A stretch of DNA of 64,000 nt from Octopus vulgaris (Eukaryota), in contig OX597815.1 of NCBI GenBank assembly GCA_951406725.2, positions 28,520,001 to 28,584,000 on the forward strand. The letters run 5' to 3'. Below, piece after piece: positions 154 through 61,787 of the stretch. Within the stretch, counting starts at the first letter, position 1. Each line of letters opens with the position of its first letter. The position numbers and the translations under genes were made by a program. The notes below the pieces were generated by a model. That model ran no database searches. It was given only the letters and a program-made list of their open reading frames with translations, and had not been told where the DNA came from.

Positions 154-300
154 AAAGAAAGAAGCAAACAAAGAAATAGAGAAGTCGATAAGAAGGAGAA
201 GCTGCTCTTGTTAAAAAGGGTTAAACATCTAGAACAGTGCATGAGTGAATATGAAAGCATGTTGGATGGATGTAGCATGCCAATAGTCATTGAGTCACAG
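154..300 (+). CDS. Exon, 147 nt, phase 0-0: KERSKQRNREVDKKEKLLLLKRVKHLEQCMSEYESMLDGCSMPIVIESQ
   Basis: ttcttatttacag acceptor, CAG|gtaaaa donor, open charged helical frame. Confidence 0.85.
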
Positions 301-4151: not shown

Positions 4152-4239
4152 AAAGACCCATATCACTTTTCATCGGAAGACATGGACTTGGATTTGGAAG
4201 ACCTTAATGATGACGCACCTATGGAATCAATTAATTTAA
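4152..4239 (+). CDS. Exon, 88 nt, phase 0-1: KDPYHFSSEDMDLDLEDLNDDAPMESINL
   Basis: ctacattgtag acceptor, A|gtaagg donor; phase 1 matches the next exon. Confidence 0.8.
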
Positions 4240-5648: not shown

Positions 5649-5652
5649 TACA

Positions 5653-6460: not shown

Positions 6461-6466
6461 TATACA

Positions 6467-10340
<3,874 letters not shown>

Positions 10341-10439
10341 CAAAGACAAAAAAGGAAATATTATTAATTAAGAAGTAATCCATAATTTCACCAAGTAGAA
10401 TTCGGCATGAAAAAAGGACCATTTCATGGTAAACTTAAG

Positions 10440-10646
10440 TATACTTAATAATTAGGGTTCAGCAAAGATTTGCTTTACCACATACCAAAGTTTAGAAATA
10501 GCAGCCAAAAGCCTTAGCTATTTCTTGGACTCCCAGAAAGGAGTCCCTTTTTAAAGTAGAAGAAATAGCTAAGGTTTTTGGCTGCTATTTCTAAACTTCG
10601 GTATGTGGTAAAGCAAATCTTTGCTGAACCTTAATTATTAAGTATA
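10440..10646. repeat. Fold-back inverted repeat, ~90-bp arms
   Basis: cagcaaagatttgctttaccacatacc / ggtatgtggtaaagcaaatctttgctg; related sequence at 5340-5520. Confidence 0.85.
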
Positions 10647-11158
10647 TATATATGTATGTATGTATATATATATATGTTTGTATGTATATATGTATGTATG
10701 TATATCTATGTGTGTGTCTTTGTGTCTGTGTTTGTCCCACCCACCCATCATCACTTGACAACTGGTGTTGGTGTGTTTATATACCTAGTGGTTTGGAAAA
10801 AGGAGACTGATAAAATAAGTAATAGGCTTTAAAATAAAGTCTTGGGGTTGAATTGTTCTACAAAAACACTTCAAAGTGGTGCTCCAGCATGACCACAGTC
10901 AAATGACTGAAACAAGTTAAAAAATAAATTTATAAATAAATAAACTTTATTGGTTGCACATACATGGTGTTTGCATTTTACTTATACCCATTTGTTGTGG
11001 AATAGTATCTAGGGAAAGCTCACTACACAAAAAAACAAACAAATACCGAATGTCCCAGAGCAAGAATGGTAGATATTGATATTTTACCATTATTATAGTT
11101 TATCAATATCATTTACCTTGAAACAAAGTGAATTGCTGGTCTGGGACTTATATACAAA

Positions 11159-11965
11159 CTAGCAGCATAGCCTAGCGTTGCCCGGGTATGTAAGAGCCCC
11201 TAGTAGGCAATGACTAATCCCAATCTAGTCCTTTCCCCCTAGGGAACGAAGGTGCATGTGTTGGTTGCAATGTCTTCTCTTCACTCCCAAATAACTATCA
11301 AACAGCTATCGATAATTCAACCCAACCAATTCCTACCAGGAAGAAATTACATTCGAGACTTTACTCCCAACACTGCCACTTCTGCTAATAGCTGCTGCAG
11401 CCGCAAGTTATTTGAATACTTTTTTTGTTTACACTTTCTTTATAACTACTACCCCAAACGTTTTACCTTAAATTTTTGACGTACCCTAAGGGTCCTCGGA
11501 CGCTACTTGCAAACTCTTGGTTTATTATAAAGTGCTTTTGTCATCTGCACCAAAAAAACCTTTTCCATTCGTTTGTTCAGTTTGGTCACTTTTGACTTTT
11601 TCATTGTTGTCACTCACATTGCTGCCCGCTTTTTTGCCGTTTTTGTACATTTTTATACATTTTGGGATACTTACCCCACATGTTCCGAGAGTTAAAAAGG
11701 TCGAGTTGCGTCCCCTAGACAGTCTGTAGAAAATGTGTTGCATATAAGAAGCTTAGATTCTCGACCCATGTTGAATTTATCGATTTTTTTTCAGAACTGG
11801 GGGAATTTTCAAAATTTTCGCTGCGTTAGTTTGGAATTATGACATTGGGCTATGTGTGTGTCAAGTTTCATCAGAATCGGTTGAAAGCCGTGGTCAGGGT
11901 GAGGGTACAACCTGACAGACACACAGACACACATACAGACAAACTGCCGTTTATATATAGAGAGA
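11159..11965 (-). mobile_element. Non-autonomous Helitron
   Basis: Minus strand starts TCTCTATATATAAAC and ends cccgggcaacgctaggc..CTAG. Confidence 0.72.
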
Positions 11966-12411
11966 TAGAGTGATGTGTTGCAGTGTTACAGTGGGGAAAA
12001 ATAAATTGAAGAGTTGTCTCACCTGGTCTGGAACATTCAGTGTTTTTTAACACTTGGCATCAGGTAAGAAGCTTTTCCCGGAATGCTATCCTAAAGCAAA
12101 TGTGTGTATAAAAAAAAAACACATACTCTATGTATGCATGACTGATAATGTTTATATTACTAGATCTGATTTTAATTTATGATTCAGTTTTCTTTCACAG
12201 GTGCTATGCTGCAACACATAACTCTAATTTGCATATAAACCCAAGATCAACAATTCATTTCATTTATCAATACACATATTTCAGGAGTGATTGACATATT
12301 CCACACTATAAAAACAAAGCTACCAATATTTTCACAAAGCCCCAAAATGATAAATCTGGTTGGTGAATATCTCATAAAAAAAATAGTAAACATTGACCAA
12401 AAAATCTTTAA

Positions 12412-12630
12412 CCCTTTCGTTACTGTATTTCTTTTGAGATGCTCTGTGTTTCTTTCAATTACTTTAAATATAACAAAGAATTTAGTAAAATAACATAGTC
12501 ATCATTTAGTTAGTGTTAGGAACATAATTTGTGACTAAGGTTTGGTGAAAGTTTTAATTCAAAATTTATGAAAACAAAACTTTTGTACGCAGAGCCAGAG
12601 CCGGTTTCAGCTGGGTTGGTAACAAAAGGG
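12412..12630. mobile_element. piggyBac-type MITE
   Basis: TTAA|CCCTTTCGTTAC ... GTAACAAAAGGG|TTAA. Confidence 0.82.
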
Positions 12631-12995
12631 TTAAGACCATCTCACGAGGCCAAAATTCACAGCAGAGGATAATTCAGAATTTTCCCTGAAGGACCGGGGA
12701 GACAATAGATGTAAAATATGTAGCAACAACAACTTCAAATATTTGGACACTTTGTGCTTTGTTTTCTTATGCATTTAAAAAAGAAAGTTCTAGCCTAAGG
12801 TTAAATTATTCGTGTTTAAAATATATTTTAGTAAATTTTTAAATGATATCATATGAACTCATATAACATTTTTGTTTTTTGTTTGTCCTGTGTTGTCCCA
12901 TTCTGTTTAAGATTGTCCTGATCATAATAAAGATTCCATTTTGAAGTATTGTGCAAAAAATTTAATGTTTAAAATTTTTTCTTCTCTTTCTTAAG

Positions 12996-13066
12996 GAATC
13001 AAAGTGAACAAAGTTCAGCAAGATTTTGTAAGAGAAAAAATGAAGTCAAAACAAATGTCTCAAGAA
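12996..13066 (+). CDS. Exon, 71 nt, phase 1-0: (R)IKVNKVQQDFVREKMKSKQMSQE
   Basis: Long polypyrimidine tract + ttaag, GAA|gttagt donor, frame continuous with neighbours. Confidence 0.82.
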
Positions 13067-13165
13067 GTTAGTATCTGTATCTTTTTCAATATCATAAAAT
13101 CATATAATTTTTCTTAATATTAAGCAAACCATTTCAGTATATAAACAGATTATAGTATAATCATA

Positions 13166-13397
13166 TACTCTTTACTCTTTACTCTTTTACTTGTTTCAGT
13201 CATTTGACTGCGGCCATGCTGGAGCACCGCCTTTAGTTGAGCAACTCGACCCCGGGATCTTATTCTTTTTGTAAGCCCAGTACTTATTCTATCGGTCTCT
13301 TTTGCCAAACCATTAAGTAACGGGGACATAAACACACCAGCATCGGTTGTCAAGCAATGCTAGGGGGACAAACACAGACACACAAACACACACACGC

Positions 13398-13446
<49 letters not shown>

Positions 13447-13612
13447 TACAACGGGCTTCTTTCAGTTTCCATCTACCAAATCCACTCACAAGGCTTTGGT
13501 CGGCCCGACGCTATAGTAGAAGACACTTGCCCAAAGTGCCACGCAGTGGGACTGAACCCGGAACCATGTGGTTGGTAAACAAGCTACTTACCAAACAGCC
13601 ACTCCTGTGCCT
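13166..13612 (-). mobile_element. tRNA-derived SINE, family 2, with internal microsatellite
   Basis: Reverse complement of copies at 21854, 26651, 37103 and 62589. Confidence 0.88.
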
Positions 13613-14063
13613 ATATACTTATATAAATATACTTTTTGTGTGAATATCTATGTATACATGAATGTGAATGTATTTGCATGCACATGTGAGTGTATGTGTG
13701 TGTACAAGCAACTGTATGTGTGTCTTCAAGCAAGTGTTTGTAAGTGCACCCTTGTCTGCATATGTGCATATGTCTGTGTGCATGTAAGCATGTGTTATTT
13801 TTTAATGGTTCAGCAAGGCAGAAAGGTGCAGTGATTATGACCTTCACAAACCCTCTAAGACTGTTTGGATCATTATCTTTGATTGGTTTATGTCGATGTT
13901 CTCATAAGTAATGATGGGCAAAGTAGTTCCTGTGGAGTCTGAGGATGACATGGGTAGAATTAAATGATAGGTGACAAGAGGGGAAGATGAGAGGATGTAC
14001 CAGGTGGGTTAGATGGTGTTGATATGTGACTAACTAGTTTATAGGAACAAAAGCTGTTGTAAT

Positions 14064-14520
14064 CATCATCATCAACATCATCATCATCATCATTCGCTTT
14101 CCATGCTGGCATGGGTTGGATGGTTCAACTGGGGTCTGGGAAGCCAGAAGGCTGCACCAGGCCCAGTTAGATCTGGCAATGTTTCTATGGCTGGATGCCC
14201 TTCCTAATGCCAACCACTCCATGAGTGTAGTGGGTGCTTTTTACGTGCCACTGGCACAGGTGCCAGACGAGGCTGGCAAACGACCACGATCGGATGGTGC
14301 TTTTTATGTGCCACCGGCACGGAGGCCAGGCGAGGCTGGCAACGGCCATGATCGGATAGTGCATTTTATGTGCCACCGGCACGGAGGCTAGGTGAGGCTG
14401 GCAACGGCCATGATTGGATGGTGCTTTTTATGTGCCACCGGCACGGAGGCCAGGCAAGGCTGGCAATGGCCATGATCGGATGGTGCTTTTTACGTGCAAC
14501 CAGCACGGAGGCCAGGTGAG
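14064..14520 (-). mobile_element. RTE 3'-end repeat with internal ~59-bp tandem units
   Basis: (ATC)n tail, ctggatgcccttcctaatgccaaccactc motif, about five tandem units. Confidence 0.82.
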
Positions 14521-14809
14521 TTGTAGTAAACAGAATGAAGGGACAAAATATTTGTGGACTAGAAGCTGCAGTGTATAGGCGAGTATTTTCTAGTTAGTCA
14601 AATATCCTTCTACTGTTGTGGTCCAAAATGCTTGTATCTTTAGTAACAGTACTGTTCCAAATGTGAGAACACAATGATACTATGGGTTATGTTTGAGCTT
14701 TGTTGAAAGTCAATGACTGTTGAAAGTTGGAATATTATATCACTCTTGAGTATTTGTCATGTATTTTTAGTTATATAATGAACTAAGAAATTTCATCAGA
14801 GACTTTGTG

Positions 14810-14862
<53 letters not shown>

Positions 14863-15259
14863 GTGCATGTGTGTGCATTATTAAAACACTGTAGTTAATA
14901 GATTTAAGTGATCTGTTAGGATGTTGATTTGTTGTGATGGGAAAATATTGTATTCATCTATTTAGCAAAGAAAAGAATTCATTAATTTATTCACACATCA
15001 ATAAAAACATTTAATATTGCTAATATTCCTGGAAAAGTACAGGCAGTGAACTGGCAGAATGCTTAGCAGCATTTCGTCCATCTTTACACTCTGAGTTCAA
15101 TTTTCACCGAAGTCAACTTTTCATCCTTGTAGAGTCAATAAAATAAGTATCAGTTGAGCACTGGGTTGATGTATTTAAATCAATATTACAGGAAAAGTAA
15201 TGGATACCACAACTCTGAATTTCATCAGAGAAGAGAGTTTGTCAATTCCTTTATGTTGT

Positions 15260-15880
15260 GAAGACCTGCTGAGGCAAGTGAAATCAAAATCGAAATCAAA
15301 ATTGAATTCGAAATCGAACCAAATTCATCGACTGGCACCCATGCCAACTTTCCTTCCCTGGACACTAAACTCTGCTTGCGAAGACCTGTTGGGTCAAATG
15401 AAATCGAAACTGAACCAAATTTGATGACTGGTTCCCATGCCAGTGGAGCGCTAACAGCTCCATCCAAGCAGGATCACTGCCAGAACAGCTGTCTGGCACG
15501 TAAAGAGTACCATTTGAGCATGACCGTTGTCAGCGTCCCCTCACTGGCACTTGTGCTGGTGGCACGTGAACAAAACATTCAAACGAGGTCGTTGCCAGTG
15601 CTGCTAGACTTACTCCTGTGCAGGTGGTATGTAAAAAACACCATTTTAGAGCATGGTCGTTGCCAGTACCACCAGACTGGCCCTCGTGCTGGTGGCACTT
15701 TAAAAGCACCCACTACTCTCTTGGAGTGGTTGGCGTTGGGAAGGGCATCCAGCTGTAGAAACTCTGCCAGATTAGATTGGAGCCTGGCACAGCCATCTGG
15801 TTCACCAGTCCTCAGTTAAATCATCCAACCCATGCTAGCATGGAAAGTGGACGTTAAACGATGATGATGATGATGATGAT
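15260..15880 (+). mobile_element. RTE 3'-UTR repeat
   Basis: Same family motif and (GAT)n tail. Confidence 0.78.
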
Positions 15881-16206
15881 CAATTAAAAACTCTTAACCA
15901 ATATTGCTATTATAAGAAAAGTAATGTACCACAACTTTAAATTCCATCACATACAAACAAATGTCATATTTGATACCTTAACAGAAATCTATAAATTTAT
16001 AGGGAAAGGAAATGAAGTTGCATGAAGTGTTAACATCTTAGTAAACCAAATTATGTCTGGGTTTCAGTTTCTAACTCAAATTATTATCCCTTCACCTCAT
16101 TTATGTGCATCAAAGTCAAGAACATCACAATTTTATATTGTTCCTTTAAAGGTTTCATGTCTTATTAAGTCATTCTGTCAATTTTATTTCTTTGGTTATC
16201 TTACAG

Positions 16207-16260
16207 ATGTTAATTAGAAATAAAATGTTGAACAATTACATCAAAGAAAATGAAAAGTTG
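16207..16260 (+). CDS. Exon, 54 nt: MLIRNKMLNNYIKENEKL
   Basis: ttacag acceptor, consensus gtaagt donor, phase 0-0. Confidence 0.85.
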
Positions 16261-16509
16261 GTAAGTAGGTGATAATTGGTTAATCTATATAAAATACTCC
16301 AGATAATACAAAAATATATAATCCACATAAAATACCCCAGTTTATAAATCACATTTGGTAATATGTGATGGATTAAATCTTCCTGGGTATTCATACATTA
16401 GATTTGATATGATGACTGTGAGTTTTTGCATATATTTTATTGTTTGTCAATGCCATTTACAGAAAAGTAATTAGCTTTTCACTTCTGAAAATAATAATTT
16501 TTGTTTTAG

Positions 16510-16584
16510 AAATCTGAAAAAATGGGGTCAAGTGTAGATCATAGCAGGGTGGCTGCATTAAAAATTAAAACTATGAAGGAAGAG
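16510..16584 (+). CDS. Exon, 75 nt: KSEKMGSSVDHSRVAALKIKTMKEE
   Basis: ttgttttag acceptor, GAG|gtaaat donor, phase 0-0. Confidence 0.85.
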
Positions 16585-16620
16585 GTAAATAACCATTTTC
16601 TTTTTTACTTTCAGTTTCTC

Positions 16621-16663
<43 letters not shown>

Positions 16664-18280
16664 TTCATTTTGATTATGGTAACCATAATCAAAATAAATA
16701 AATATTCCTACTAACCTATAAGTCATATATTTGAAGTTTGTTATTAGTACTCATGTATGATATTTCTCTTTCTTTGGTATTTTCTACATTAAATATGAGA
16801 TCACTTAACCATATGACATTAATAGCGGGATGTTCACCATTATCTCAGTATAAAATTTATCTTATCTTATTTCAGTATCCATAACTGACATATGGAACAC
16901 ATCATGCATGTAAGTTTGTTCCATTCTAGAATTTCATAAGATGTCTAACAGGAGCTGTAACTCTAAAATGTTAGTAATTCAAACCAACTTGTGGCATTGC
17001 TTTATACATACAAGCAAAGTGCATTATTTATTTACCTCATCCAACTCAACTGATAATAGTTATCCCTTCCTTTTTATGATAATATTCGCTTATTTGTTTT
17101 ACGTCTATCTTTTCATGCTAGTATTATTACATGAATGCATATTATTAAGGCATTGTTTTACAACCAAATGCCTTTCCCATTGCTAACCTTTGCTTGTTTT
17201 CAAAGTAAATCTTCATTCCATTTCTCTTCAAAAATGATGGGCTACTGGATAATTTATAGATGGTATTGTTTGTCAACAAATTACACTATCTATAGCTCAG
17301 CTCATCAGAGAATTTAACACTCACACAGACACACATGCAGGCACGACTTCGTATATTTTCTGTCTACTAAATTCACTCACAAAGCATTGGTTGTCCTGAT
17401 GCTACAATAGAAGACACTTGCCCAAAGTGTTACACAATGGGACTGAGCCCCAAATTACATGATTGTGAAGCAGTCTTCTAAACTACGCAATCCTGTGCCT
17501 TTCCATGTTTGTACTTATAGGCATATTTACAGGATAGCTATTGTTATTGTTGATGTTGCTATTGTTTTCCAGTCTCAGTTAGCAGAGCCTGAATAGATGG
17601 CTATCATGAAAAGACATTTTGATATTTCTTCACAAATTCATGTGTATGTTGGGTTCAGTAGATTTTTGCTGTATATGCTATAGTTATTGGCTCTGTTTGC
17701 CATAAAAAAATCAAGGTCTCTGATTTGTGCTACATATTCATATAATAAATTTGCCTTGATGCTACAGTTCTAACTATTTCATCACATTCTTTGTGACTAC
17801 TTGCAATTTAATTTTTTAAGCTAAATCCTTTCATTCTCCTTTCATTCTTAGTCAGCTTTCTGACTAACTGATATTTCTCAAGGAACAAGAAACTTTCAAA
17901 TAATGAATCTCTTGGCTAATATAAAACAATAGTTACCACTTTGAATGTCTAACCTCTTTTGAAACAGTTCTGAGAAGAACTGGAATTAAAACTATGAATG
18001 CAGTATTCCACTCATAAATTGTACATCTTTAGTTATTCAGATTGATCTAAGTCTTATTTGTCCTTATTCCAGTGGTATTAATAGCTAAATTCTAGTTCAG
18101 AATCAAGAGATCTTGGCTTTTTCTCTATATCAACATACATACATGCTTATATGTGTGTGAGTATGTAATATGCTTTGCATTAGTTTGCATATTTTCTCTT
18201 GTGTTTTTTCAGTTGTTTGTTGCAATTAATTAAATTTTATTTTACCTGAAGAAATCATGTTTTCAACTACTTTGATTTAG

Positions 18281-18370
18281 TATCTTGCTGAGTTGGACCG
18301 GTTAAAGACAAGAATTTCTGAGTTGAAACAATCTTTAAATGAACAGCGCTTGCTTGCACAAGCTTATGAG
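18281..18370 (+). CDS. Exon, 90 nt, coiled coil: YLAELDRLKTRISELKQSLNEQRLLAQAYE
   Basis: tttgatttag acceptor, GAG|gttagt donor, heptad leucine pattern. Confidence 0.85.
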
Positions 18371-19479: not shown

Positions 19480-19870
19480 TGAAGCCAGCAATTCACACCA
19501 AACACTGAAACCTATTGTTGAAGAAAGTTTTGTTGCTGCATGACAATGTACTTCCACACATGGCCACCCAGACTGTTGAAACCATTAACCAATTGTGTTT
19601 AAAATCTTCTGATGAATTTTAGCACCTGACATGCCTTCCAACCAGAGAAATCAGGTCACTGCTCTTTGTTCTTCTTTGGTGCACATTGCTAGAGGAGCAG
19701 CCATACTTACACTGTAAAGCCAGAACAATAAATGATGTATTCAGGCTCAAACATCGATCAGGTGACCACAATAATACCATCTATAAGTATGCATGTGAAG
19801 AAGGTAGTGTAACAATAATAACGATATGTAATGGCAAAAGTGTGGATAAATTTTAACTTCACTCATATTT
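19480..19870 (+). mobile_element. Mariner transposase remnant
   Basis: VLLLHDNVLPHMA resembles the mariner HDNARPH motif. Confidence 0.55.
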
Positions 19871-19963
19871 TGAAGAAATTTATATGGAACTATTTAAAAT
19901 CAAGAAATATATTTACGATGTAAATATAATCATAAATATGTATGCCTTCCTTTTCTTTTGCAG

Positions 19964-20011
19964 AAAAAAGCTGCCATGCTTACTAGAGATTCCAGTAGAA
20001 CTTCTATCAGG
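19964..20011 (+). CDS. Micro-exon A1, 48 nt: KKAAMLTRDSSRTSIR
   Basis: ttttcttttgcag / gtaata; first unit of the array. Confidence 0.8.
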
Positions 20012-20704
20012 GTAATAATTAAAGATATATCAATTTGCCTGTCCTTGATTGAGAAGTAACTATTCAAATATCTATAACATATTATATATATATATGCATG
20101 CATGTATGTACATATGTATGTACATACATATGTATGTATACATGTATGTAGTAAACAAAATAAAATGGATAGCTCAAAACATCATTATATGCATTTCAAC
20201 CATGTGGTTATTTATTACCAATGTAAAGTACATAACATTCCGTAATTTCATATTTTGACATAATCAACGAATTTCAGCCAGTAATACTGGGTAAAATGCT
20301 GGAAAATCTGTGAGGATAAACATCTTTATCCCCAAAGACTGATTGCATTTCCCTGAATGGCTACAGAATATCATCTGATGAAATGGAATTGTTATGTGAC
20401 AATGCAGAATTATGTAATGTTATAGAACATACTTTACATTCATAATAAATAACCATGCTATTGAAATGCATGTCATATGTTGAGGTTTCCATTCACTTTT
20501 TTACACAAAGTGATTCGTTTTACAATATGTACCACTTATATTATTGGTACATACATAGATTTACTGAGTATGAATGACTGGTAGACGACTGTCTGAATGT
20601 GTGTTGTGGACCACTAGACTCACCAGTTTAAATGTTGTTCTATTTAAAATCAATGAATATACATTAATGGAATCCTGAATATAAGTTTACCTTTTGTTTT
20701 ACAG

Positions 20705-20752
20705 AGAAGATCTACCTTAGAATCCAGAGATGAATTTCTTGAATCTGAAAGG
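20705..20752 (+). CDS. Micro-exon A2, 48 nt: RRSTLESRDEFLESER
   Basis: ttttgttttacag / gtaatt, phase 0-0. Confidence 0.8.
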
Positions 20753-21390
20753 GTAATTATTACAGATATATTAAATTGCTTGTCCTAGATTGAAAAGCAA
20801 CTATTCAACCATCTATGCCATTGTCTGTGTGTGTGTGAATGTGTATGTATGTGTGTGTATGTGAGAGAGAGAGAGAAAGAGAGAGAGGTACCTGAATGTA
20901 TAGGTCAAAACATCATTATACACATCTCAACAGTATGATTATTTCCTATCAATGTAAAGTACATTATGTAACATTATGTAAATTCCCATTCTGGCATAAT
21001 CACGACATTTCTATGCAGATAAAGGTCTTTATCCCCAAAGATTGATTGTATTTCAATGCGTGATTGCTGAGTATCACCTGATGAAATGGTATGGTTATGT
21101 AACAATGCAGAATTATATAATGTTATATAATGTTCTTTGCATTCATAATCATGCTATTGAAATGCATGTGGTGATATGTTGAACTTTCCATTCTCTTTTT
21201 CTACACAAAATCATGCAATATGTACCAGTTATGCCATTGATATATACAAGATACTTAAAACCAGTAATCAACACTCTGACTCTGTGTGGTCTCTTCACTG
21301 ACCAGTTTAAATGTTGTACTATTTATAATCAAGAAATTTGTTTACTATGTTAATAGAATTATGAATATATGTTTTCCTTTTGTTTTACAG

Positions 21391-22019
21391 AGAAAATCTG
21401 CCTTTATTTCTAACTCTCTTGAAAGCTACACACCATGTGGATATTTGCATTCCGTCCTATGGAGGGCTCATAGGACTTGTGACCTAAAATTAAGGGGAGC
21501 TAAATAGCATGACTATAATATGTCTATAATAACTATATGCCCCGGTGGTGTTTGATCAGAGGTTAAAGATTGATGAGAATTAATTCTGTAATGCAATTAT
21601 TTGCGTCCCAAGTTAAATTTCAAATATCGGCCAGTTTGTCCCAAAGTTCTTGACATAAAATTTATCGCCCACTTCATCTCTGACGTCATCTCACAAATGC
21701 CAGTCAAAGTGGTGTGCATCATCCATGCTGTATCTGCTACAACAAGCAAATAAAATGCTTTTAAATCAGATTTAATTGCTGGATGTTCAAGAATGTAGGG
21801 TAGAGTTTCAATCCCTGTTTCATCCTGATTCCAAAATGTATATGTCTCTGTAGAGGCGCAGGAGTGTCTGTGTGGTAAGTAGCTTGCTAACCAACCACAT
21901 GGTTCCGGGTTCAGTCCCACTGCGTGGCATCTTAGGCAAGTGTCTTCTGCTATAGCCCCGGGCCGACCAATGCCTTGTGAGTGGATTTGGTTGACAGAAA
22001 CTGAAAGAAGCCTGTCGTA

Positions 22020-22096
<77 letters not shown>

Positions 22097-22393
22097 TTGT
22101 TTGTGTTTGTCCCCCTAGCATTGCTTGACAACCGATGCTGGTGTGTTTACATCCCCGTCACTTAGCGGTTCGGCAAAAGAGAACAATAGAATAAGTACTG
22201 GGCTTACAAAGAATAAGTCCTGGGGTCGATTTGCTCGACTAAAGGTGGTGCTCCAGCATGGCCACAGTCAAAGGACTGAAACAAGTAAAAGAGTAAAAGA
22301 GAGTAGAGCAAATGTGGACTGAGACACAGGGCTTCCAAAAAACAGAATTTCGCCTTTATCATAATAGAAGATCATCACATGGATACTGACAGA
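21391..22393 (+). pseudogene. Micro-exon A3 split by a ~0.95-kb insertion; rejoined it reads RKSAFIIIEDHHMDTDR
   Basis: Intact acceptor; GCCTTTAT duplicated at 21400-21407 and 22352-22359; donor degraded to gttata, followed by the usual intron motif. Confidence 0.7.
21854..22302 (+). mobile_element. SINE family 2 nested in the insertion that splits A3
   Basis: Full head-to-tail copy; gtagag repeated at both ends. Confidence 0.88.
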
Positions 22394-23124
22394 GTTATAG
22401 TTAAAGATATATTAATTTGCTTAACCTGCAGTAAAGAGCAACTATTCATCCCTCTATACCATTGTGTATGTGTGAGTTTGAGTGTGTGTGTGTGTGTGTG
22501 TGCATGTGTGTTTGCTCTGTATGTGTGTGTACGTGTGTGTGTGAGTGAATGTGTGGTAACAAAAAATGAATGGATAGTTCAAAACATCATGATACACATC
22601 TCAGCTGTGTGATTATGTATTATCAATGTAAAAGTACACTACATAACATTCCGTAATTTCATATTCTGACATAACCACGACATTTCATCTAGTAATATTG
22701 GGTAAAATGCAGGCAAATCTGTGAGGATAAACATATTTATCTCCAAAGACTGATTGCATTTCACTGAATGGCTACTGAATATCACCTGATGAAATGGGAT
22801 TGTTATGTGACAATGCAGAATTATGTAATGTTATAGAAAATACTTTGCATTCATAATAAATAACCATGCTATTGAAATGCATGTCATGATATGTTGAGCT
22901 TTCCATTCACTTTTTTACCCAAAGTGATTCGTTTTGCAAAATGTATCAATTATGTTCTTGGTACATACTTGGATTTACAGAGTACAAAAGACTAGTAGAC
23001 AACTGTGTGACTGTGTGTGCAGACCACTAGACTCACCAGTTTAAATGTTGTTCTATTTAAAATCAAGAAATATATTTACTACAGTAATGGAATCTTGAAT
23101 ATATGTTTTCCTTTTGTTTTACAG

Positions 23125-23172
23125 AAAAAATTTGCCTTAGAATCCAGAGATGATAGTCTGGATCCTGATAAG
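23125..23172 (+). CDS. Micro-exon A4, 48 nt: KKFALESRDDSLDPDK
   Basis: ttttgttttacag / gtaatt. Confidence 0.8.
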
Positions 23173-24077
23173 GTAATTATTACAGATATATTAAATTGCT
23201 TGTCCTGGACTGAAAAGCAACTATTCAACCATCTATGCCATTGTCTGTGTGTGTGTATGTGTGTGTGCATGTGTGTGAGGTGAAGAAACCTGAATGTATT
23301 GGTCAAAACATCATTATACACACCTCAACAATGTAATTATTTTTCCTATCAATGTGAAGTACACATTATGTAAATTCACATTCTGGCATAATCACAACAT
23401 ATCTTCCGCTGATACAGGGTAAAATGTAAGCAAATCTATGAAAATAAAGATCTCTACTCTAAAGTTTGATTGTATTTCAATGCGTAATTGCTGAGTATCA
23501 CCTAATGAAATGGTATGGTTATGTCACAAAACAGTATTATATAATGTTACATAATGTAGACAACGAAAAATTAATGGATAGCTCAAAACATCATGAAACA
23601 CATACTCAAACGTGTGATTATGTATTATCAATATAAAATATACTGCATAACATTCCGTAATTTCGTATTCTGGCATAACCACAACATATCATCCAGTAAT
23701 ATTAGGTAAAATGCAGGCAAATCTATAAGGATAAATATCTTTATCACCATAGATTGATTGTATTTCATGAAATGGCTACTGAATATCACCTGATAAAATG
23801 GGATTATTATGTGACAATGCAGAATTATGTAATGTTATATAACATTCTTTGTATTTTTAATAAATAACCATGCTATTGAAATGCATGTCATGATATGTTG
23901 AGCTTTGCAATATGTACCAATTACGCCATTGATACATACATGGATTTACAGGATGCTTAAAACAAGTTGACAGGTCTCTGACTCCGTATGGATCAATGCA
24001 TTAAGCAATTTAAATGTTGTACAATTTAAAATCATAAATGGAATCATGAACATATACATTTTCCTTTTGTTTTACAG

Positions 24078-24125
24078 AGAAAATTTACCTTTAGCGTCAT
24101 AGATGATGCCGCGGACATTGAAAAG
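24078..24125 (+). CDS. Micro-exon A5, 48 nt: RKFTFSVIDDAADIEK
   Basis: ttttgttttacag / gtaatt. Confidence 0.8.
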
Positions 24126-24192
24126 GTAATTATTACAGATATATTAAGTTACTTGTCCAGGATTGAAAAGCAACTGTTCAACCATTTATACC

Positions 24193-24265
<73 letters not shown>

Positions 24266-24631
24266 TAGTGTGTGTATCAAAGAAAATTAAATGGATCGTT
24301 CAAAACATCATTGCACACATCTTGATAGTGTGATTCTTTATTATCAGTGCAAAGTACACTATATAACATTATGAGATTTCATAGTCTGGCATAACCACGA
24401 CATTTTCTCAGGTAATACTGAGTAAACTTCAGGCATATCTATGAGGATAAAGATCTTCATCCCCAACGATTGATCGGATTTCAAAGCATGATTGCTGAAT
24501 ATTAATTGATGAAATAGTATGGTTATGTGACAGTGCAGAGTTATGTAATGTTACATAGTGTACTTTGCATTCATTATAAATAATCCTGCTATTGCAATGC
24601 ATGTGGTGATATGTTGAGCTTTCCATTCTTT

Positions 24632-25029
24632 GGATCTTTTCGGTTTGAACGGCAGTTTTTTAAAATAATTTCCACGTAACTAAGCACTTTTAAACTTCGT
24701 ATACTGGTAGAATGTGTTTATAAAACATCTTTTTTCTTGGCTTTATTGAGAAAATTCTATAGTTTGTAAGATATTTGTTGTTGCTTTTTCTTCAATTTCT
24801 GTAATTTCAACCAATCAATGACGTCTATTGAGGTGAAAACATTCTGTGCCGTATGAATATGTCCCTCATTTAAGAAACAGATTGGGTTTATTTACATTTG
24901 TGAAGAAAAAAAGATACCCTAACCCTAAGACAGATTGAAATGCAATAGATTGATACTAGGGTCATAATTATGGGTGACAATTTCATATGACACCGCTAGA
25001 AAAAACTACCGTTCAAACCGAAAAGATCC
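24632..25029. mobile_element. TIR DNA element (MITE) with 8-bp TSD
   Basis: ggatcttttcggtttgaacgg / ccgttcaaaccgaaaagatcc; TSD cattcttt; absent from paralogous units. Confidence 0.88.
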
Positions 25030-25250
25030 CATTCTTTTTCTGTATACAAAATGATGCACTTTGCCAGATGTACCAGTTATGCCATTGATACATGCATGAA
25101 TTTACAGAATGCCTAAGACCCGTAGACAATTGTTTAACTGTGTATGGACTCCACACTCATCAGTTTAAATGTTGTACTATTTAAAATCAAAAAATATATT
25201 TACTACATTAATGGAATTATAAATATATATGCTTTCATTTTATTATATAG

Positions 25251-25298
25251 AAAAAATCTGCTTTAAGTTCTAAAGATGACCAAAAGGATGCTGACAAG
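25251..25298 (+). CDS. Micro-exon A6, 48 nt: KKSALSSKDDQKDADK
   Basis: ttttattatatag / gtaatt. Confidence 0.78.
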
Positions 25299-25543
25299 GT
25301 AATTATAAGATTAGCTGGCCCCGTACTGTCAAAAATGATGGCTAATTGTAGTATTTTATATATAAATAATGTACAAAATAATTACAGACAGAAACACTTA
25401 CATACTTCCCATGTACATGCACACACATACACACATATGCACACACAGAGTTGAAATGCTATTTGGCTTTTGTTTTCAGCATTGAATATTCACCATCCCG
25501 CTTCCATTGCACACACACACACATGCACACATGCACGCACACG

Positions 25544-25599
<56 letters not shown>

Positions 25600-26271
25600 A
25601 ACAAACATTCACATGACTCCCTTTTACATACATACACATATACTCACGCAGAGTTGAAACGCTGTTTGATTTTTTTGCATGTGTGTGTGTGTGTGTGTGA
25701 TAAAAATGAATGAATAGCTCAAAACATCATTACAGACATCTCAACTGTGTGATTATGTATTATAAATGCAAAGTGCATTACTCAACACTATGTAATTTCA
25801 CATTGTCGCAAAACCACTGTTTCCTCGGGTGATACTGCGTAAACTGCAGTGAAATCTATGTGGATAAAGATTTTTATTCTCAAAAAAATGTTTGCATTTC
25901 AATGAGTGATTGCTGAATATTACCTGATGAAATGGTATGGCTCTGTGACAATGCAGAATTATGTAATGTTATATTATGTCCTTTGCATTCATCAGAAATA
26001 ACCATGCTATTGAGGTACATTTGATATGTTCAGCTCCCCAATCTTTTACACTGTACACAATGATCCACTTTGAAATATGTACTAATTATGCCTTTGATAC
26101 ATATATGGATTTACAGAATGCCTAAGACCAGTAGACAACTGTCTGACTCTGTGGGGACTCTTCACTGACCAGCTTAAATGTAATATCTAAAATCAAGATA
26201 TATATTTGCTACATTAATGGAATCATGTTAATATATAAATATGGATATATATACTTTCCTTTGTTTTACAG

Positions 26272-26301
26272 AAAAAATCTGCCAGAGCACAACTGAGTAA
26301 G
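26272..26301 (+). CDS. Micro-exon A7, 30 nt: KKSARAQLSK
   Basis: tttgttttacag / gtaatt; 18 nt shorter, frame kept. Confidence 0.75.
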
Positions 26302-26650
26302 GTAATTATTAAAGATATATTAATTTGCTCATCCTGGATTGAAAAGCAACTATTCAACCATCTATGCCACTGAGCTTGTGTGTGTGTATGTGTGTGTGTG
26401 TGTGTGTGTGTAGTAAAAAAATTAAGGGATAGCTCAAAACATTATTACACGCGTCTCAACAGTGTGATTATTTATTGTCAATATAAAGTAGATTACATAA
26501 TATTGCATAATTCCACATTGTTGCATAAGCACAAAGCTTCCTTGGGTGAAGCTGAGTAAAAAGATTTTTATTCTCCAAGATTGACTGTATTTCAATGAGT
26601 GATTGCTGAATATCACCTGATTAACTGTCTAACTGTATAAACCACTACAT

Positions 26651-27045
26651 AGGCGCAGGAGTGGCTGTGTGGTAAGTAGCTTGCTAACCAACCACATGGT
26701 TCTGGGTTCAGTCCCACTGTGTGGCATCTTGGGCAAGTGTCTTCTGCTATAGCCTCGGGCCGACCAAAGCCTTGTGAGTGGATTTGGTAGACGGAAACTG
26801 AAAGAAGCCTGTCGTATATATGTATATATATGTATGTGTGTGTGTATGTTTGTGTGTCTGTGTTTGTCCCTCTAGCATTGCTGGTGTGTTTACGTCCCCG
26901 TCACTTAGCGGTTCAGCAAAACAGACTGATAGAATAAGTACTGGGCTTACAATGAATAAGTCCCGGGGTCGATCTGCTCGACTAAAGGCGGTGCTCCAGC
27001 ATGGCCGCAGTCAAATGACTGAAACAAGTAAAAGAGTAAAAGAGT
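26651..27045 (+). mobile_element. SINE family 2
   Basis: Near identical to other copies. Confidence 0.88.
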
Positions 27046-27141
27046 ATAGTACAATTTAAACGTTGCACTATTTAAAATCAAGAAATATATTTGCTATATT
27101 AATGGAATCGTAAATATATGGGCTTTCATTTTATTTTACAG

Positions 27142-27189
27142 AAAAAACCTGGCAGGAAAGCTAAAGATGTCTTCAAGGATGCTCAAAAG
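27142..27189 (+). CDS. Micro-exon A8, 48 nt: KKPGRKAKDVFKDAQK
   Basis: ttttattttacag / gtaatt. Confidence 0.8.
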
Positions 27190-27887
27190 GTAATTATTAA
27201 AGATGTTTTAATTTGTCTTGAACTGAAAAGCACTATTCAATCTCCTATACCATTGTGTAAGTGTATGTGCGTGTTTGTGCATATTTGTGTATGTGTGCAT
27301 GCACATGTGTGCATGTGTATGGTAAAGAAGACTGAATGAATGGTTCAAAACATCATTACACACATCTTAACATTGTGAATCTTTATTGCCAGTGCAAAGT
27401 ACATTACATAACATTATATAATTGCACATTGTTGCATAGCCAAAACATCTCCTCAGGTGATACTGTGTAAAATACAGTCAAATCTATGAGGATAAAGATC
27501 TTTATACCCATAGATTGATTATCTTTCATGGAATGGTTGTTAAATATCATCTGATGAAATGGTATGGCTCTGTGACAATGCAGAATTATATAATGTTATA
27601 TAATATACTTTGCATTTGTAATAAATAACATTCTATTGAAATGCAAATGGTGATATGTTGAGCTTTCCATTCTGTTTTTTTATACAAAACGATGCACAGT
27701 GCAATATGTACCAATTATGTCATTGATACATACAAGGAATTACGAAATGTCTGAGACCAGTAGACAACTGTCTGACAGTGTATAAACCACTATATGGAAC
27801 AATTTAAACATATTATTTAAAATCAAGAAATATATTTTGCTATATTAATGGAATCGTAAATATATATGCTTTCATTTTATTTTACAG

Positions 27888-27935
27888 AAAAAATCTGCCA
27901 CAAGTTCAAAAGATGACAGCAAGGATTCTGAAAGG
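27888..27935 (+). CDS. Micro-exon A9, 48 nt: KKSATSSKDDSKDSER
   Basis: ttttattttacag / gtaatt. Confidence 0.8.
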
Positions 27936-28012
27936 GTAATTATTAAAGATGTTTTAATTTGTCTTGAACTGAAAAGCACTATCCAACCTCCTATACCATT
28001 GTGTAAGTGTAT

Positions 28013-28050
<38 letters not shown>

Positions 28051-28599
28051 ATGTGGGTGTGTGTATGTGTGTGTGTGTGGTAAAGAAAACTGAATGGATA
28101 GTTCACACATGTTAACATTGTAATTCTTAATTATCAGTGCAAAGTACATTACATAACATTACGTAATTGAACATTGTTGCAAAGCCAGAACATTTACTCA
28201 GGTGATACTGTGTAAAACGCAGTCAAATCTATGAGCATAAAGATCTTTATTCCTATAGATTGTGTTTCATGTAATGGTTGTTGAATATCATCTGATGAAA
28301 CAGTAGGGTTCTAAGACGATGCAGAATTATATGATGTTGAATAATATATTTTGCATTCGTAATAAATAACCATGCTATTGAAATGCATGTGAGAATATAT
28401 ATTTTTAAGCAAAATGATGCACTTCGCAATATGTATCAATTATGGTATTGTAGCATACGTGGGTTTCCAGAATGCCTAAGACCAGCAGACAACTCTCTGG
28501 CTTTGCATGGAGCACTACACTCACTAATTTAAATGTACTTTTTAAAATCAAGAAATATATTTACTATACCATTAGAATCATATATATATATATATATAT

Positions 28600-28902
28600 C
28601 ATCATCATCATCATCATCGTTTAACGTCCGCTTTCCATGCTAGCATGGGTTGGACGGTTCAACTGGGGTCTGGCAAGCCCGAGGGCTGCACCAGGCCAGT
28701 CAGATCTGGCAGTGTTTCTACAGCTGGATGCCCTTCCTAACGCCAACCACTCCGAGAGTGTAGTGGGTGATTTTATGTGCCACCGACACAGGTGCCAGAT
28801 GAGGCTGGCAGACGGCCACACTCGGATGGTGTTTTTTATGTGCCACCGACACAGGTGCCAGACGAGGCTGGCGAACGGCCACACTCGGATGGTGTTTGTT
28901 AC
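28600..28902 (-). mobile_element. RTE 3'-end repeat just upstream of A10
   Basis: Family motif; close to the reverse complement of 51670-52113. Confidence 0.82.
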
Positions 28903-28972
28903 ATATATATATGTATGTATGTATGTATGTATATATATATGTGTGTGTATATATATATATGCTTTCATTTAG

Positions 28973-29017
28973 TTTACCGAGAAAATCAGCCATTATGACC
29001 TCGTGGATGCTGACAAA
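28973..29017 (+). CDS. Micro-exon A10, 45 nt if the shifted acceptor is used: FTEKISHYDLVDADK
   Basis: Ancestral acceptor is ccg; new tttag 7 nt upstream; donor gtaatt intact. Confidence 0.55.
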
Positions 29018-29686
29018 GTAATTATTTAAGATATATAAATTTGTTTGTCCTGAATTGAAATGCAATTATTCAACTAATTAATATCATTATGTGTGTGTGT
29101 GTGTGTGTGTGTGTCTGTTTTGTGTTGTGTGTGTGTATGTGTGTGTGTGTGTGTTGTAAAGAATATTTAATGGAGAGCTCAGACATCTTAATAGTGCAAT
29201 TATCTACTACCAGTGCAATGTGCATAATTTTGCATTGTTGCATAACCACAAAATTTCCTTAGGCTATACTGGGTAAGACAAAGTCGAATCTATGAGTATA
29301 AAGATCTTTTTCTCCAAAGACTGATTGTATTTCACAGAATGGTTGCTGAAGGTTACCTGATGAAACAGGATTGTTATGTGACGATGCAGAATTATGTAAT
29401 GTTATTTAATGTACTTTGCATTCGTCATAAATAACCATGCTATTGAAATGCATGTGGTGATATGCTGAGCTTTCCATTCTCTTTTTTATACAAAATGATG
29501 CACTTTGCAATATGTACCAATTATGCCATTGATACATACATGGATTTACAGGATGCCTAAGACTAGTAGGCAACTGTCTGACTTTGTATAGAGTCTTCAC
29601 TGAACAATTGTGCTGTTTAGAATCAAGAAATATATTTACCTTTTTAATAGTAACATAAATATATATGCTTTCCTTTTGCTTTACAG

Positions 29687-29728
29687 AGTAAATCTGCTGC
29701 AAGTCCTAGGGGAGCACGTGCTGGCAGG
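29687..29728 (+). CDS. Micro-exon A11, 42 nt: SKSAASPRGARAGR
   Basis: ttttgctttacag / gtaatt. Confidence 0.75.
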
Positions 29729-29839
29729 GTAATTATTAAAGCTATATTAATTTGCTTGTCCTGGATTTAAAGCAACTATTTAACAATCTGTACCATTGTT
29801 TTGTGTGTGAGTGTGTGCGCGCACGTGCATGCACGCACG

Positions 29840-30160
29840 TCATCATTGTCACCATCATTTAACCTCCATCTACCATGCTAGCATTGGTTGGACGGTTTGA
29901 CAGGAGCCGGCCAGGTAGAAGACAACACCAAGCTACTGTGTTTGTTTTGGCGTGGTTTTTACTGCTGGTTGCCCTTCCTAGCAGCAGCCACCCTGTAGAG
30001 AAGACTGAGTACTTTTTATGTGGCACCAGCACATGTGAAGTCAGTTTTGACATTGGTTTTACAGCTGGATGCTCTTTCAAATGCGAACCACTTCACAGTG
30101 TAGACTGGCTGCTCTTTATGTGGCACCAGCACCAGCACCAGCAGGGTCACTAAGTAACTT
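29840..30160 (-). mobile_element. Older RTE-type 3'-end fragment
   Basis: ccatgctagcattggttggacgg motif, degenerate (ATC)n tail. Confidence 0.6.
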
Positions 30161-31572
30161 GCAAGTCAAGGAATTTTGAGATGAGTGGAAACGTTAGAGG
30201 AGGTGATCTTGCATCAGCTGATGAAAGATTAGAATGTAACAGAGAGATAGAAAGGCAGAAACAGGTGTCTGCTATAGAGTGAATACATGGTTACTAGGCC
30301 AAGAGAGAGAGAGAGAAAGAGAGAGGGGGAAGAGAAGGAAAAGGAAAGTGGGGGTACAAGAATGAGAACAGAAACGTGTGTTGCTGTAAAGGAAAGACTT
30401 AGTTACTTTGCCAGAGGGGAGTGCAGGAGAAGACAGAGAAAGCAATCAAGAATGAGGGATGGAACAGGTGTGCTGCTGTAGAGGAGATATATAGTTATCC
30501 AACCAGAGGGAAGAGCAAGGGAAAGAGAAATAGGGAGTGGGTGACAGCAAAAGTGCAACAGAGAGCAGCAGAGAGGTAGTGGTGAAGTGCCAGGATATGT
30601 ACACAAGCAATGGAATTCAGTGCATAGATGGGATGACAAAGTAAGGAAGAGAGATAAATGGGAGCAAGTGCCAGGACATGCATTCAAGGTACAGAGACAT
30701 AACATATGTGGCCAGGTATTGCCAAGAAGGTGTGAGTAGGGAATAGGGTGGGGAATGCAGTGGCTGGTGGGAACCTGGAAATAAAGAGAGGGATGGGGAA
30801 AGTAGCGATACTGTGAGCAGGGCACTGAAGGCAAGGATGGGGAGTGGAAGAAAATCATAGTGTATGAAGAGGAACTATGAGAAATAAAAGTGATGCAGTT
30901 TAGGAGATGAGATGTAGTTTGGATTCTAGGGGTAGGGTACGTGGAAACTTTGTTGTTATCTGTGGGTGGGACATAATGCTTCTAGCACTGAGTTACACTG
31001 TGTATAAAAGAAAATTGAATGAATGGCTCAAAACATCATTACACACATCTCAACAGTGTGATTATTTATTATTGGTGCGAAGTACATTACTTAATGTTAT
31101 ATAATTTCTCTTTGTTGCTGAATGATCCCATTTCATCAGGTGATACTGGGTAAACTGTAGTCAAATCTATATGGATAAAGACCTTAATCCCCAGAGATTG
31201 ATTGTATTTCATGGAATGGTGGCTGAATATCAGCTTGTTAAATGGGGTTGTTATGTGACAATGCAGAATTATGAATTGTTATATAATGTACTTTATATTT
31301 GTCATAAAGAAACATGCTATCGAGATACATGTGATATGCTGAGCTTCCCATTCTTTTTTATTTAGAAAATTATGCATTTTGCAATATGTACCAATTATAC
31401 CATTAATACATATATGGAGTTACAGAATGCCTAAGACCAGTAGACAACTGTCTGACTGTATATGGACTCTACACTTATCAATTTAAATGTTGTAGTATCT
31501 AAAATCAAAAAATATATCTACTACGTTAAAGAAATCATAAAATTTATTTATATATTTCATTTTATTTTACAG

Positions 31573-31620
31573 GGAACATCTTCTATGACTCCAAAAGATG
31601 ATGACAAGGATACTGAAAAG
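31573..31620 (+). CDS. Micro-exon A12, 48 nt: GTSSMTPKDDDKDTEK
   Basis: ttttattttacag / gtaatt. Confidence 0.8.
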
Positions 31621-36344: not shown

Positions 36345-36395
36345 GGAAAATACACGTCAGATGTATCTTATGAAGATTACTCAGACTTTGACTCG
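36345..36395 (+). CDS. Diverged micro-exon A13, 51 nt: GKYTSDVSYEDYSDFDS
   Basis: ttgttattttatag / gtaattatt; downstream flank weakly similar to A units. Confidence 0.72.
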
Positions 36396-43478: not shown

Positions 43479-43520
43479 ATGAGAAGTTCAACAAGTTCAG
43501 AAATGGTAGAGTCAGAGTTT
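43479..43520 (+). CDS. Diverged micro-exon A14, 42 nt: MRSSTSSEMVESEF
   Basis: ttttattttatag acceptor; weak gtatat donor followed by an A-like flank (..ttggaaagcagctat); another gt at 43506 is also phase 0. Confidence 0.5.
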
Positions 43521-49706: not shown

Positions 49707-49763
49707 ATAAAAAGTGTACCAAGTTTTGAAGCATCGAAAATATCAATGAAATTATACACCACG
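49707..49763 (+). CDS. Micro-exon B1, 57 nt: IKSVPSFEASKISMKLYTT
   Basis: catatttatag / gtattc; flanks repeated at B2 and B3. Confidence 0.75.
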
Positions 49764-56771: not shown

Positions 56772-56828
56772 GCAAAAAGTACTCCAGCTTTTGAAACAGT
56801 CACACCGGACATGAAAAATTCTTCTTCA
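56772..56828 (+). CDS. Micro-exon B2, 57 nt: AKSTPAFETVTPDMKNSSS
   Basis: catatttatag / gtattc. Confidence 0.72.
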
Positions 56829-61730: not shown

Positions 61731-61787
61731 GTACAAAGTGTTCCAATTTTTGAGTCACCCACAAAGGAGATGAAAGATGCTTCTACG
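61731..61787 (+). CDS. Micro-exon B3, 57 nt: VQSVPIFESPTKEMKDAST
   Basis: atattcatag / gtattc. Confidence 0.75.

What the first reader, a model, noticed from the sequence alone, without database searches (positions are those of the whole stretch)
20705..27935. Family A exons diverge about ten-fold more than the adjacent intron, almost only at amino-acid-changing sites
Hand counts: A2 vs A4 differ at 12/48 nt (11 in amino-acid-changing codons, 1 synonymous) while the next ~78 intron nt differ at 2. A8 vs A9 differ at 14/48 nt (10 of 16 residues) against 2 in ~80 downstream intron nt. Upstream flanks differ somewhat more, but still less than exons. This inverts the usual pattern and is known from positively selected toxin and gamete-recognition genes. 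Inference: diversifying selection on the peptides, or intron homogenisation/constraint.
Basis: partly seen in the sequence, partly recalled or inferred. Interest (0 to 1): 0.88.

Follow-up and report, generated by a model that had tools for sequence, protein, structure and literature searches.

The report
Fast-changing mini-exon array in octopus gene
An octopus gene for an uncharacterised coiled-coil protein carries a chain of tiny repeated exons whose protein-changing sites have diverged about two to three times faster than the introns between them (not ten times), likely because selection drove amino-acid change in some of the repeats.

Summary
The hand counts are right (12/48 vs 2/78; 14/48 vs 2/80), but the ten-fold figure comes from using only the first 80 intron bases. 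Against whole introns it is 2.4x and 1.9x. A codon model over 8 copies gives amino-acid-changing sites 2.1-2.8x the intron rate (p<1e-5) and synonymous sites 1.3-1.9x; dN=dS inside the exons is not rejected. 'Almost only amino-acid-changing' is near the neutral expectation (23 N: 3 S, p=0.07). The units are 48-nt phase-0 exons of an Octopus DUF4709 (C10orf67-like) coiled-coil gene. The O. sinensis model uses them exon for exon; no signal peptide is visible, so they are unlikely to be toxin or secreted peptides. The best support for selection is orthologous: in a related species A1 differs at 15 listed (about 20 inferred) of 48 exon bases, within 30 differences over 269 bases, about 4x the published genome dS. 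A5 is similar; A6 looks neutral. A8/A9 flanks are mosaic. The scan noted similar exon-over-intron patterns in other genes, not at this locus.

The parts
154..300 (+). coding exon of the DUF4709 gene (P0001 aa 112-160); four more coding exons lie upstream of the window
4152..4239 (+). coding exon (aa 161-190)
12996..13066 (+). coding exon (aa 190-213)
16207..16260 (+). coding exon (aa 214-231)
16510..16584 (+). coding exon (aa 232-256)
18281..18370 (+). last coiled-coil exon before the array (aa 257-286)
19964..20011 (+). A1, 48-nt phase-0 exon; 12 of 16 residues differ from the first O. bimaculoides repeat while both flanks stay close
20705..20752 (+). A2, 48-nt phase-0 exon, sister copy of A4
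21391..21429 (+). A3, truncated copy: acceptor kept, family donor lost, absent from the O. sinensis model (end approximate)
23125..23172 (+). A4, 48-nt phase-0 exon (1 residue differs from O. sinensis)
24078..24125 (+). A5, 48-nt phase-0 exon (3 residues differ from O. sinensis; at least 13 base changes to any fitting O. bimaculoides repeat)
25251..25298 (+). A6, 48-nt phase-0 exon; slowest unit (4 base changes to its nearest O. bimaculoides repeat)
26272..26301 (+). A7, 30-nt phase-0 exon (in-frame shortened copy)
27142..27189 (+). A8, 48-nt phase-0 exon; near flanks shared with A9, upstream intron broken by an interspersed repeat
27888..27935 (+). A9, 48-nt phase-0 exon
28980..29017 (+). A10, dead copy: acceptor AG lost, 38 nt, absent from the O. 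sinensis model
29687..29728 (+). A11, 42-nt phase-0 exon
31573..31620 (+). A12, 48-nt phase-0 exon, last unit with the shared intron
20012..31572 (+). duplicated intron cassette between A exons: about 70 nt after the donor, a microsatellite, about 550 nt of shared AT-rich core; copies 11-30% apart; several interspersed-repeat insertions
36345..36395 (+). 51-nt phase-0 exon following the A array (aa 439-455)
43479..43505 (+). 27-nt phase-0 exon (aa 456-464)
49707..49763 (+). B1, open 57-nt exon-like copy, not in the O. sinensis model
56772..56828 (+). B2, open 57-nt exon-like copy, not in the O. sinensis model
61731..61787 (+). B3, 57-nt phase-0 exon (aa 465-483); the gene goes on to about 71 kb beyond the window

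Best explanation
The A units are symmetric 48-base exons inside an octopus DUF4709 (C10orf67-like) coiled-coil gene; they likely multiplied as intron-plus-exon cassettes by unequal crossing-over, encode a charged and likely disordered spacer, and change amino acids two to three times faster than their introns, likely through bursts of positive selection on some copies. Shown: the exon-intron anatomy, the gene model match, the rate excess over introns. Inferred: (1) phase-0 symmetry lets copies be gained, lost or skipped without a frameshift (A3 and A10 are dead, A7 and A11 shortened in frame, O. bimaculoides has its own near-identical copies); (2) the spacer (18% K, 17% S, 15% D, 8% R) is weakly constrained overall, with a fast class at codons 5, 6 and 11; (3) splice junctions rebuild basic-basic-x-Ser motifs that would be kinase sites, so the spacer would tune charge, length and phosphorylation between two coiled-coil ends; (4) the selective agent is most likely reproductive (a sperm or germ-line structural protein; about even odds, resting on recalled testis bias of mammalian C10orf67, not on any call). 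The ten-fold figure is inflated by a short yardstick and, for A8/A9, by recent homogenisation of the near flanks.
For: Gene: O. sinensis XP_036356659.1 maps exon by exon and uses 10 of the 12 A copies, skipping exactly the two broken ones; DUF4709 27.8 bits vs cut-off 27, Atlas 0.95. Copies: non-synonymous rate 2.1-2.8x intron in 5 of 5 fits, p from 7e-12 to 1e-6, still 2.0-2.3x after dropping A1, A5, both, or A8. Orthologues, which intron homogenisation cannot make alike: one contig of organism E spans A1 and both flanks with 30 differences in 269 nt; 15 are listed inside the 48-nt exon and fit the first repeat of P0002, whose remaining residues need 5 more; about 17 non-synonymous (hand count) vs 4.0 expected at the published autosomal dS of 0.123 (PMC10925132), p=1e-6; A5 at least 13 vs 4.1, p=4e-4. 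Against O. sinensis: 10 residue changes in 445 repeat-region positions vs 2 in 478 elsewhere, p=0.018. Family B shows the same direction in 3 of 3 pairs against upstream flanks (exon 30-47%, flank 10-20%).
Against: dN=dS inside the exons is not rejected (p=0.13-0.26). The site test is p=0.002 on the near-flank tree but 0.095 on the whole-intron tree. If neutral is 1.7x the intron rate, the excess among copies is p=0.015-0.12. A6 fits neutrality (4 changes vs 4.1 expected). Young family C copies show 3 N and 3 S changes (read). A1 and A5 were the units the tool displayed, 272 difference rows were hidden, and A5's partner repeat is not fixed. The first O. bimaculoides repeat is nearer to A9 (12 changes) than to A1 (18). 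No call shows transcription or tissue.
Confidence: 0.6

Rival explanations
1. Relaxed constraint plus a slow yardstick: the spacer is nearly neutral at the protein level, and exon DNA simply mutates about twice as fast as these AT-rich introns (or the introns are mildly constrained), with clustered multi-base mutations giving the odd large jump.
For: Synonymous rate 1.3-1.9x intron; a single exon rate of 2.0-2.6x fits as well as separate rates. All-pair pN 0.43, pS 0.29, intron 0.21. Local intron difference to organism E is about 5-7% (94/1297 over the 5 pieces pooled, one holding 24 nt of the dead copy A3), below the published dS 0.123. Five adjacent bases differ in A1. Family C: 6/54 variable exon columns vs 68/2315 intron, half synonymous.
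Against: A1 and A5 exceed even a neutral distance of 0.17 (p=5e-5 and 0.005). The model already uses intron-derived base-specific rates, and CpG density is equal in exon and upstream intron (0.0078 vs 0.0075). Rate heterogeneity barely changes the estimate.
Confidence: 0.27
2. Mosaic history: conversion or unequal crossing-over keeps introns alike or swaps exons between copies, with junctions at exon edges, so exons only look older than their flanks.
For: A8/A9 near flanks 8/145 vs 92/500 further down, p=7e-5. In family C, exon C7 is 30% from C3, C5 and C6 while 400 nt upstream differ by about 1%, because a 3-kb duplication ends at the exon edge. Unrelated A2 and A9 share the same 3' end.
Against: Paralogous introns are 11-30% apart while orthologous ones are 4-11% apart, so there is no general homogenisation. 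For A1 both flanks fit the orthologue: a paralogous downstream flank (24-35% away) would alone use up the difference budget. No copy in either species is a close donor for A1 (12-19 changes to window copies, 10-13 residues to other O. bimaculoides repeats). Note that conversion which spares exons would itself imply selection to keep them different.
Confidence: 0.11
3. The repeats are processed at dibasic sites into secreted peptides (toxin-like or gamete-recognition).
For: Most junctions give runs of K/R.
Against: The units sit inside a 923-aa protein between coiled-coil regions; the first 40 residues show no hydrophobic signal stretch (seen by eye; no signal predictor was run); the domain is DUF4709.
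Confidence: 0.02

Closest known systems
C10orf67 / DUF4709 (PF15821) proteins
   Same: N-terminal DUF4709 in O. sinensis (27.8 bits) and Argonauta hians (31.1 bits); nearest Atlas clusters are DUF4709 and C10orf67. [quoted passage not shown]
   Different: DUF4724 not found at E<=0.1; a 444-aa spacer built from 28 mini-exons; function of the family is unsettled (weak NOD2 link, PMC5094585 passages; hypoxia-apoptosis knockdown, 10.1101/743955 passages).
Schistosome micro-exon genes (MEGs)
   Same: Small symmetrical exons and raised dN/dS between orthologues (PMC4350168, passages).
   Different: MEG products are secreted or gland-associated and mostly made of micro-exons; here exons are 27-57 nt, cover 48% of the protein, arose as duplicated cassettes inside one conserved gene, and no signal peptide is seen.
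Pacific oyster bindin
   Same: Mollusc gene with tandem repeats varied by positive selection, recombination in an intron and splicing (PMC5712786, passages).
   Different: Bindin repeats are folded F-lectin domains of an acrosomal protein; these are 16-aa low-complexity units, and no sperm location is shown.
Snake venom and serum-protein gene arrays with accelerated exons
   Same: Coding change measured against intron divergence KN (PMC6609765, passages).
   Different: Those are whole-gene duplicates of secreted proteins; here internal exons of one gene, with a 2-3x excess. Venom PLA2 and conotoxin cases are recalled, not read.
Xenopus caerulein and magainin tandem exons
   Same: Tandem exon growth by unequal crossing-over (PMC3731216, passages).
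   Different: Those copies show near-zero divergence and yield cleaved peptides; these diverge by 21-65%.

Membership tests
C10orf67 / DUF4709 | N-terminal DUF4709 above Pfam cut-off | tested here: met
   P0001 27.8 vs 27; Argonauta P0004 31.1; P0002 25.6 is under the cut-off; Atlas 0.95, 205 shared features
C10orf67 / DUF4709 | C-terminal DUF4724 (in 15-56% of members of two Atlas clusters, so not universal) | tested here: not met
   no hit at E<=0.1 on P0001
C10orf67 / DUF4709 | orthology to vertebrate C10orf67 by tree or synteny | not tested
   sequence searches reached only octopods
C10orf67 / DUF4709 | testis-biased expression (recalled for mammals) | tested here: inconclusive
   no RNA holder listed; two gonad-study supplements gave no usable row
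positively selected repeat exons | non-synonymous rate above full-length intron rate | tested here: met
   2.1-2.8x, p<=1.3e-6
positively selected repeat exons | dN above dS of the same exons | tested here: inconclusive
   p=0.13-0.26 overall; site model p=0.002 / 0.095
positively selected repeat exons | orthologous dN above genome-wide dS | tested here: met
   2 of 3 units examined (A1, A5 yes; A6 no) (dS from PMC10925132)
positively selected repeat exons | fixed amino-acid changes exceed polymorphism | not tested
   both read-laying runs were used before individuals of the same species could be laid
Schistosome MEGs | symmetric exons | tested here: met
   28 of 28 spacer exons of P0001 have codon-boundary splice sites
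Schistosome MEGs | most of the coding region in very small exons (<=36 nt, limit recalled) | tested here: not met
   3 of 28 are <=36 nt; spacer is 444 of 923 aa
Schistosome MEGs | secreted product | tested here: not met
   no hydrophobic N-terminus by eye; DUF4709 head
Toxin or peptide precursor | signal peptide plus cleaved repeats | tested here: not met
   no predictor run

The most novel reading that the evidence does not exclude
An intracellular coiled-coil protein of octopods carries a spacer of about 30 in-frame mini-exons that is rebuilt in each lineage (different repeats in Argonauta, different copies in each Octopus) and is repeatedly driven by positive selection, acting as a species-specific, splice-tunable charge and phosphorylation code in sperm or germ-line competition: a MEG- or bindin-like engine on a protein that never leaves the cell.
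Probability: 0.25. Interest if true: 0.75.

Novelty: new variant of a known kind. Interest (0 to 1): 0.5.

Why it matters
Exons outrunning introns is known from secreted venom, immune and gamete-surface genes. Here it occurs among internal mini-exons of an apparently intracellular member of an uncharacterised animal family, in a gene that no searched paper names. The duplicated introns give a built-in clock and the dead copies a neutral control, so selection on a low-complexity spacer can be tested directly, and the locus may point to what C10orf67-like proteins do. It is also a clear warning that one short flank can inflate such a contrast four- to five-fold.

Tried and rejected
Ten-fold contrast as a family property: rejected. 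N:S skew as evidence on its own: rejected, p=0.14 and 0.07. Copies elsewhere in the genome: 12 of 12 matches lie in this array (lower bound). Pox_A_type_inc hit on the last coiled-coil exon: taken as a generic coiled-coil match. P0006, an unnamed repeat protein at E=1.4e-4: low-complexity chance match, dropped. Atlas structure rows: none named a family. Expression: no RNA holder listed, which is no evidence; supplements of PMC11202624 (1 file; holds no per-gene expression table and uses other gene ids) and PMC6341066 (6 files) gave 0 hits. Reads were laid only on 19780-25400, so A7-A12 have no orthologous DNA comparison. From I dropped the 22716-22980 pieces of X5 and X7 (38 and 30 differences, taken as the paralogous intron); the X5 intron figure (at most 9 of 2151, from 7 of its 8 listed pieces, which are the longest and so biased low) gives 5/338 vs 9/2151, p=0.03, treated as weak. 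A3, A7, A10 and A11 were left out of the codon models for length or breakage. Literature: no paper names the gene or DUF4709; searches for an internal-exon parallel gave one Dscam paper (listing only) and none. Subscription papers and bioRxiv supplements were not searchable.
Full report
Observation. The region holds 12 copies of a unit made of a short exon-like stretch and a shared intron. All 12 genome matches to one unit lie in this array. But the 80 bases after the donor are not typical. With all alignable intron the pairs give 90/860 (10.5%) and 100/645 (15.5%), so 2.4-fold (p=0.007) and 1.9-fold (p=0.024). Only these 2 of 28 pairs have such low downstream values. The exon is still above the upstream intron in 21 of 21 pairs and above all 548 intron windows of equal size. 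The skew to amino-acid-changing sites is 23 to 3 by pathway counting, against 74:26 expected from site numbers, p=0.07.

What the units are. The exon at 154-300 found two proteins among 2 candidates: O. sinensis XP_036356659.1 (P0001, 923 aa) and O. bimaculoides XP_052821827.1 (P0002). P0001 maps on the + strand from about 10.6 kb before the window to 71.6 kb after it, with 12 residue differences over 923 compared positions. It uses A1, A2, A4-A9, A11 and A12 and skips A3 (no donor) and A10 (no acceptor, 38 nt). So the A units are internal phase-0 exons; that they are transcribed rests on this model, not on reads. Residues 287-730 come from 28 such exons of 27-57 nt. The head carries DUF4709 just above the Pfam cut-off, and the Atlas puts it with DUF4709/C10orf67 clusters at 0.95. 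An Argonauta hians protein is 41% identical over 146 N-terminal residues and has other repeats at this place. The O. bimaculoides protein has about 12 A-type repeats, two of them identical, so the array turns over between species. The A region is 18% K, 17% S, 15% D, 8% R, with 5 basic-basic-x-Ser/Thr motifs in P0001 and 8 in P0002; no signal stretch is visible.

Rates among copies. I fitted a codon model to the 8 full-length exons on trees and base-specific rates taken from the introns. Non-synonymous rate is 2.2-2.8 times the intron rate (95% range 1.7-3.6 with synonymous rate fixed), synonymous rate 1.35-1.9 times; the excess over the intron has p from 7e-12 to 6e-7, but equal dN and dS is not rejected (p=0.13-0.26). 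Gamma rates give 2.1-2.3; dropping A1, A5, both, or A8 gives 2.0-2.3; against a yardstick of 1.5x the intron p=0.001-0.018, against 1.7x p=0.015-0.12. A site model with a fast class (codons 5, 6, 11) beats a nearly neutral one at p=0.002 on the near-flank tree and 0.095 on the whole-intron tree. Copies alone thus show exons about twice as fast as introns but cannot separate selection from a slow yardstick.

Rates among orthologues. Contigs of four coded runs were laid on 19780-25400. One contig of organism E spans A1 and both flanks, 269 nt with 30 differences. Fifteen are listed inside the exon and fit the first repeat of P0002; two further residue changes need 5 more. So at least 15 and probably 20 of 48 exon bases differ, against at most 15 and probably 10 of 221 flank bases. 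[quoted passage not shown] A second contig over A5 has 18 differences in 149 nt; the repeats that fit its listed letters need at least 13 exon changes, p=4e-4, though its partner is not fixed and 3 gaps blur the split. A6 needs only 4 changes, as neutral predicts. The N-terminal exons need 62 changes in 639 sites (0.097), close to but below dS, so most of the gene is fast, with a nearly invariant core at residues 70-111. Against O. sinensis the repeat region has 10 changes in 445 positions and the rest 2 in 478 (p=0.018); these may include polymorphism. 272 difference rows were not shown, and A1 and A5 are the units that were.

Mosaic history is real but local. The near flanks of A8/A9 differ at 8/145 and the rest of the downstream intron at 92/500 (p=7e-5). 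Yet paralogous introns are 11-30% apart and orthologous ones 4-11%, and both flanks of A1 are orthologous, so homogenisation cannot carry the whole pattern.

Mechanism. Shown: cassette anatomy, frame symmetry, dead and shortened copies, the 2-3x excess. Inferred: growth by unequal crossing-over; a disordered charged spacer (the Atlas model of the whole protein has pLDDT 0.48); episodic positive selection on some units over weak constraint (0.6), against relaxation with a slow yardstick (0.27) and mosaic history (0.11). A sperm or germ-line role is the likeliest agent but rests on recalled testis bias of mammalian C10orf67; no call tested tissue.

Comparison and novelty. It works like schistosome MEGs (PMC4350168, passages), oyster bindin (PMC5712786, passages) and snake gene arrays (PMC6609765, passages), but fails MEG and toxin membership on exon size and secretion; frog peptide exons are the opposite case (PMC3731216, passages). 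C10orf67 papers seen as passages: PMC5094585, PMC10298883, 10.1101/743955. PMC11202624: passages, part 1 of 54 of its supplement and a search of it; PMC6341066: supplement search only; PMC3236188 and PMC13093632: listing only. No searched paper names the gene or domain. Earlier scan notes hold similar patterns in other genes, none here. Class: new variant of a known kind; interest 0.5.

Noticed in passing
G000:C2 about 28,605,000-28,621,800 (window-relative 84996-101818; L017-L018): Family C: five 3-kb units, 96-99% alike, each with a 54-nt exon; the O. sinensis model has two. One copy (window-relative 92070-92124) has a 1-nt insertion (dead copy or assembly error). The duplication junction lies at an exon edge.
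   Followed up: partly
window 49707-49763, 56772-56828, 61731-61787: Family B: three 57-nt open exon-like copies, 30-47% apart with upstream flanks 10-20% apart; only the third is in the O. sinensis model, so two may be skipped or unannotated.
   Followed up: partly
window 154-18370 and upstream (L011-L012): The non-repeat N-terminus is also fast: 54 of 284 residues differ from O. bimaculoides, but residues 70-111 differ at 1 of 42.
   Followed up: partly
P0002, P0003, P0005: Public models of this gene are broken: P0002 ends by reading into the intron after the last A repeat, P0003 ends in unrelated sequence, and the O. vulgaris record is a 67-aa fragment.
   Followed up: partly
window 44756-45172: Perfect-style hairpin: two 208-nt arms, 96% complementary, 1 nt apart; probably a foldback or MITE-type element.
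   Followed up: no
window 24623-25030: High-copy element with inverted ends inserted in the intron before A6, present in organisms B, C, D and far less covered in E.
   Followed up: no
window 45560-46930 and 6650-9990: Decayed LINE-like reverse-transcriptase stretches in introns of the gene (judged by eye).
   Followed up: no
window 37700-38900: About 1.2 kb of very AT-rich non-repeat sequence of unknown origin in the intron after 36395.
   Followed up: no
window 22370-22450: Remnant of the family's donor-side flank without an exon, next to an interspersed repeat: trace of a lost or split unit.
   Followed up: no
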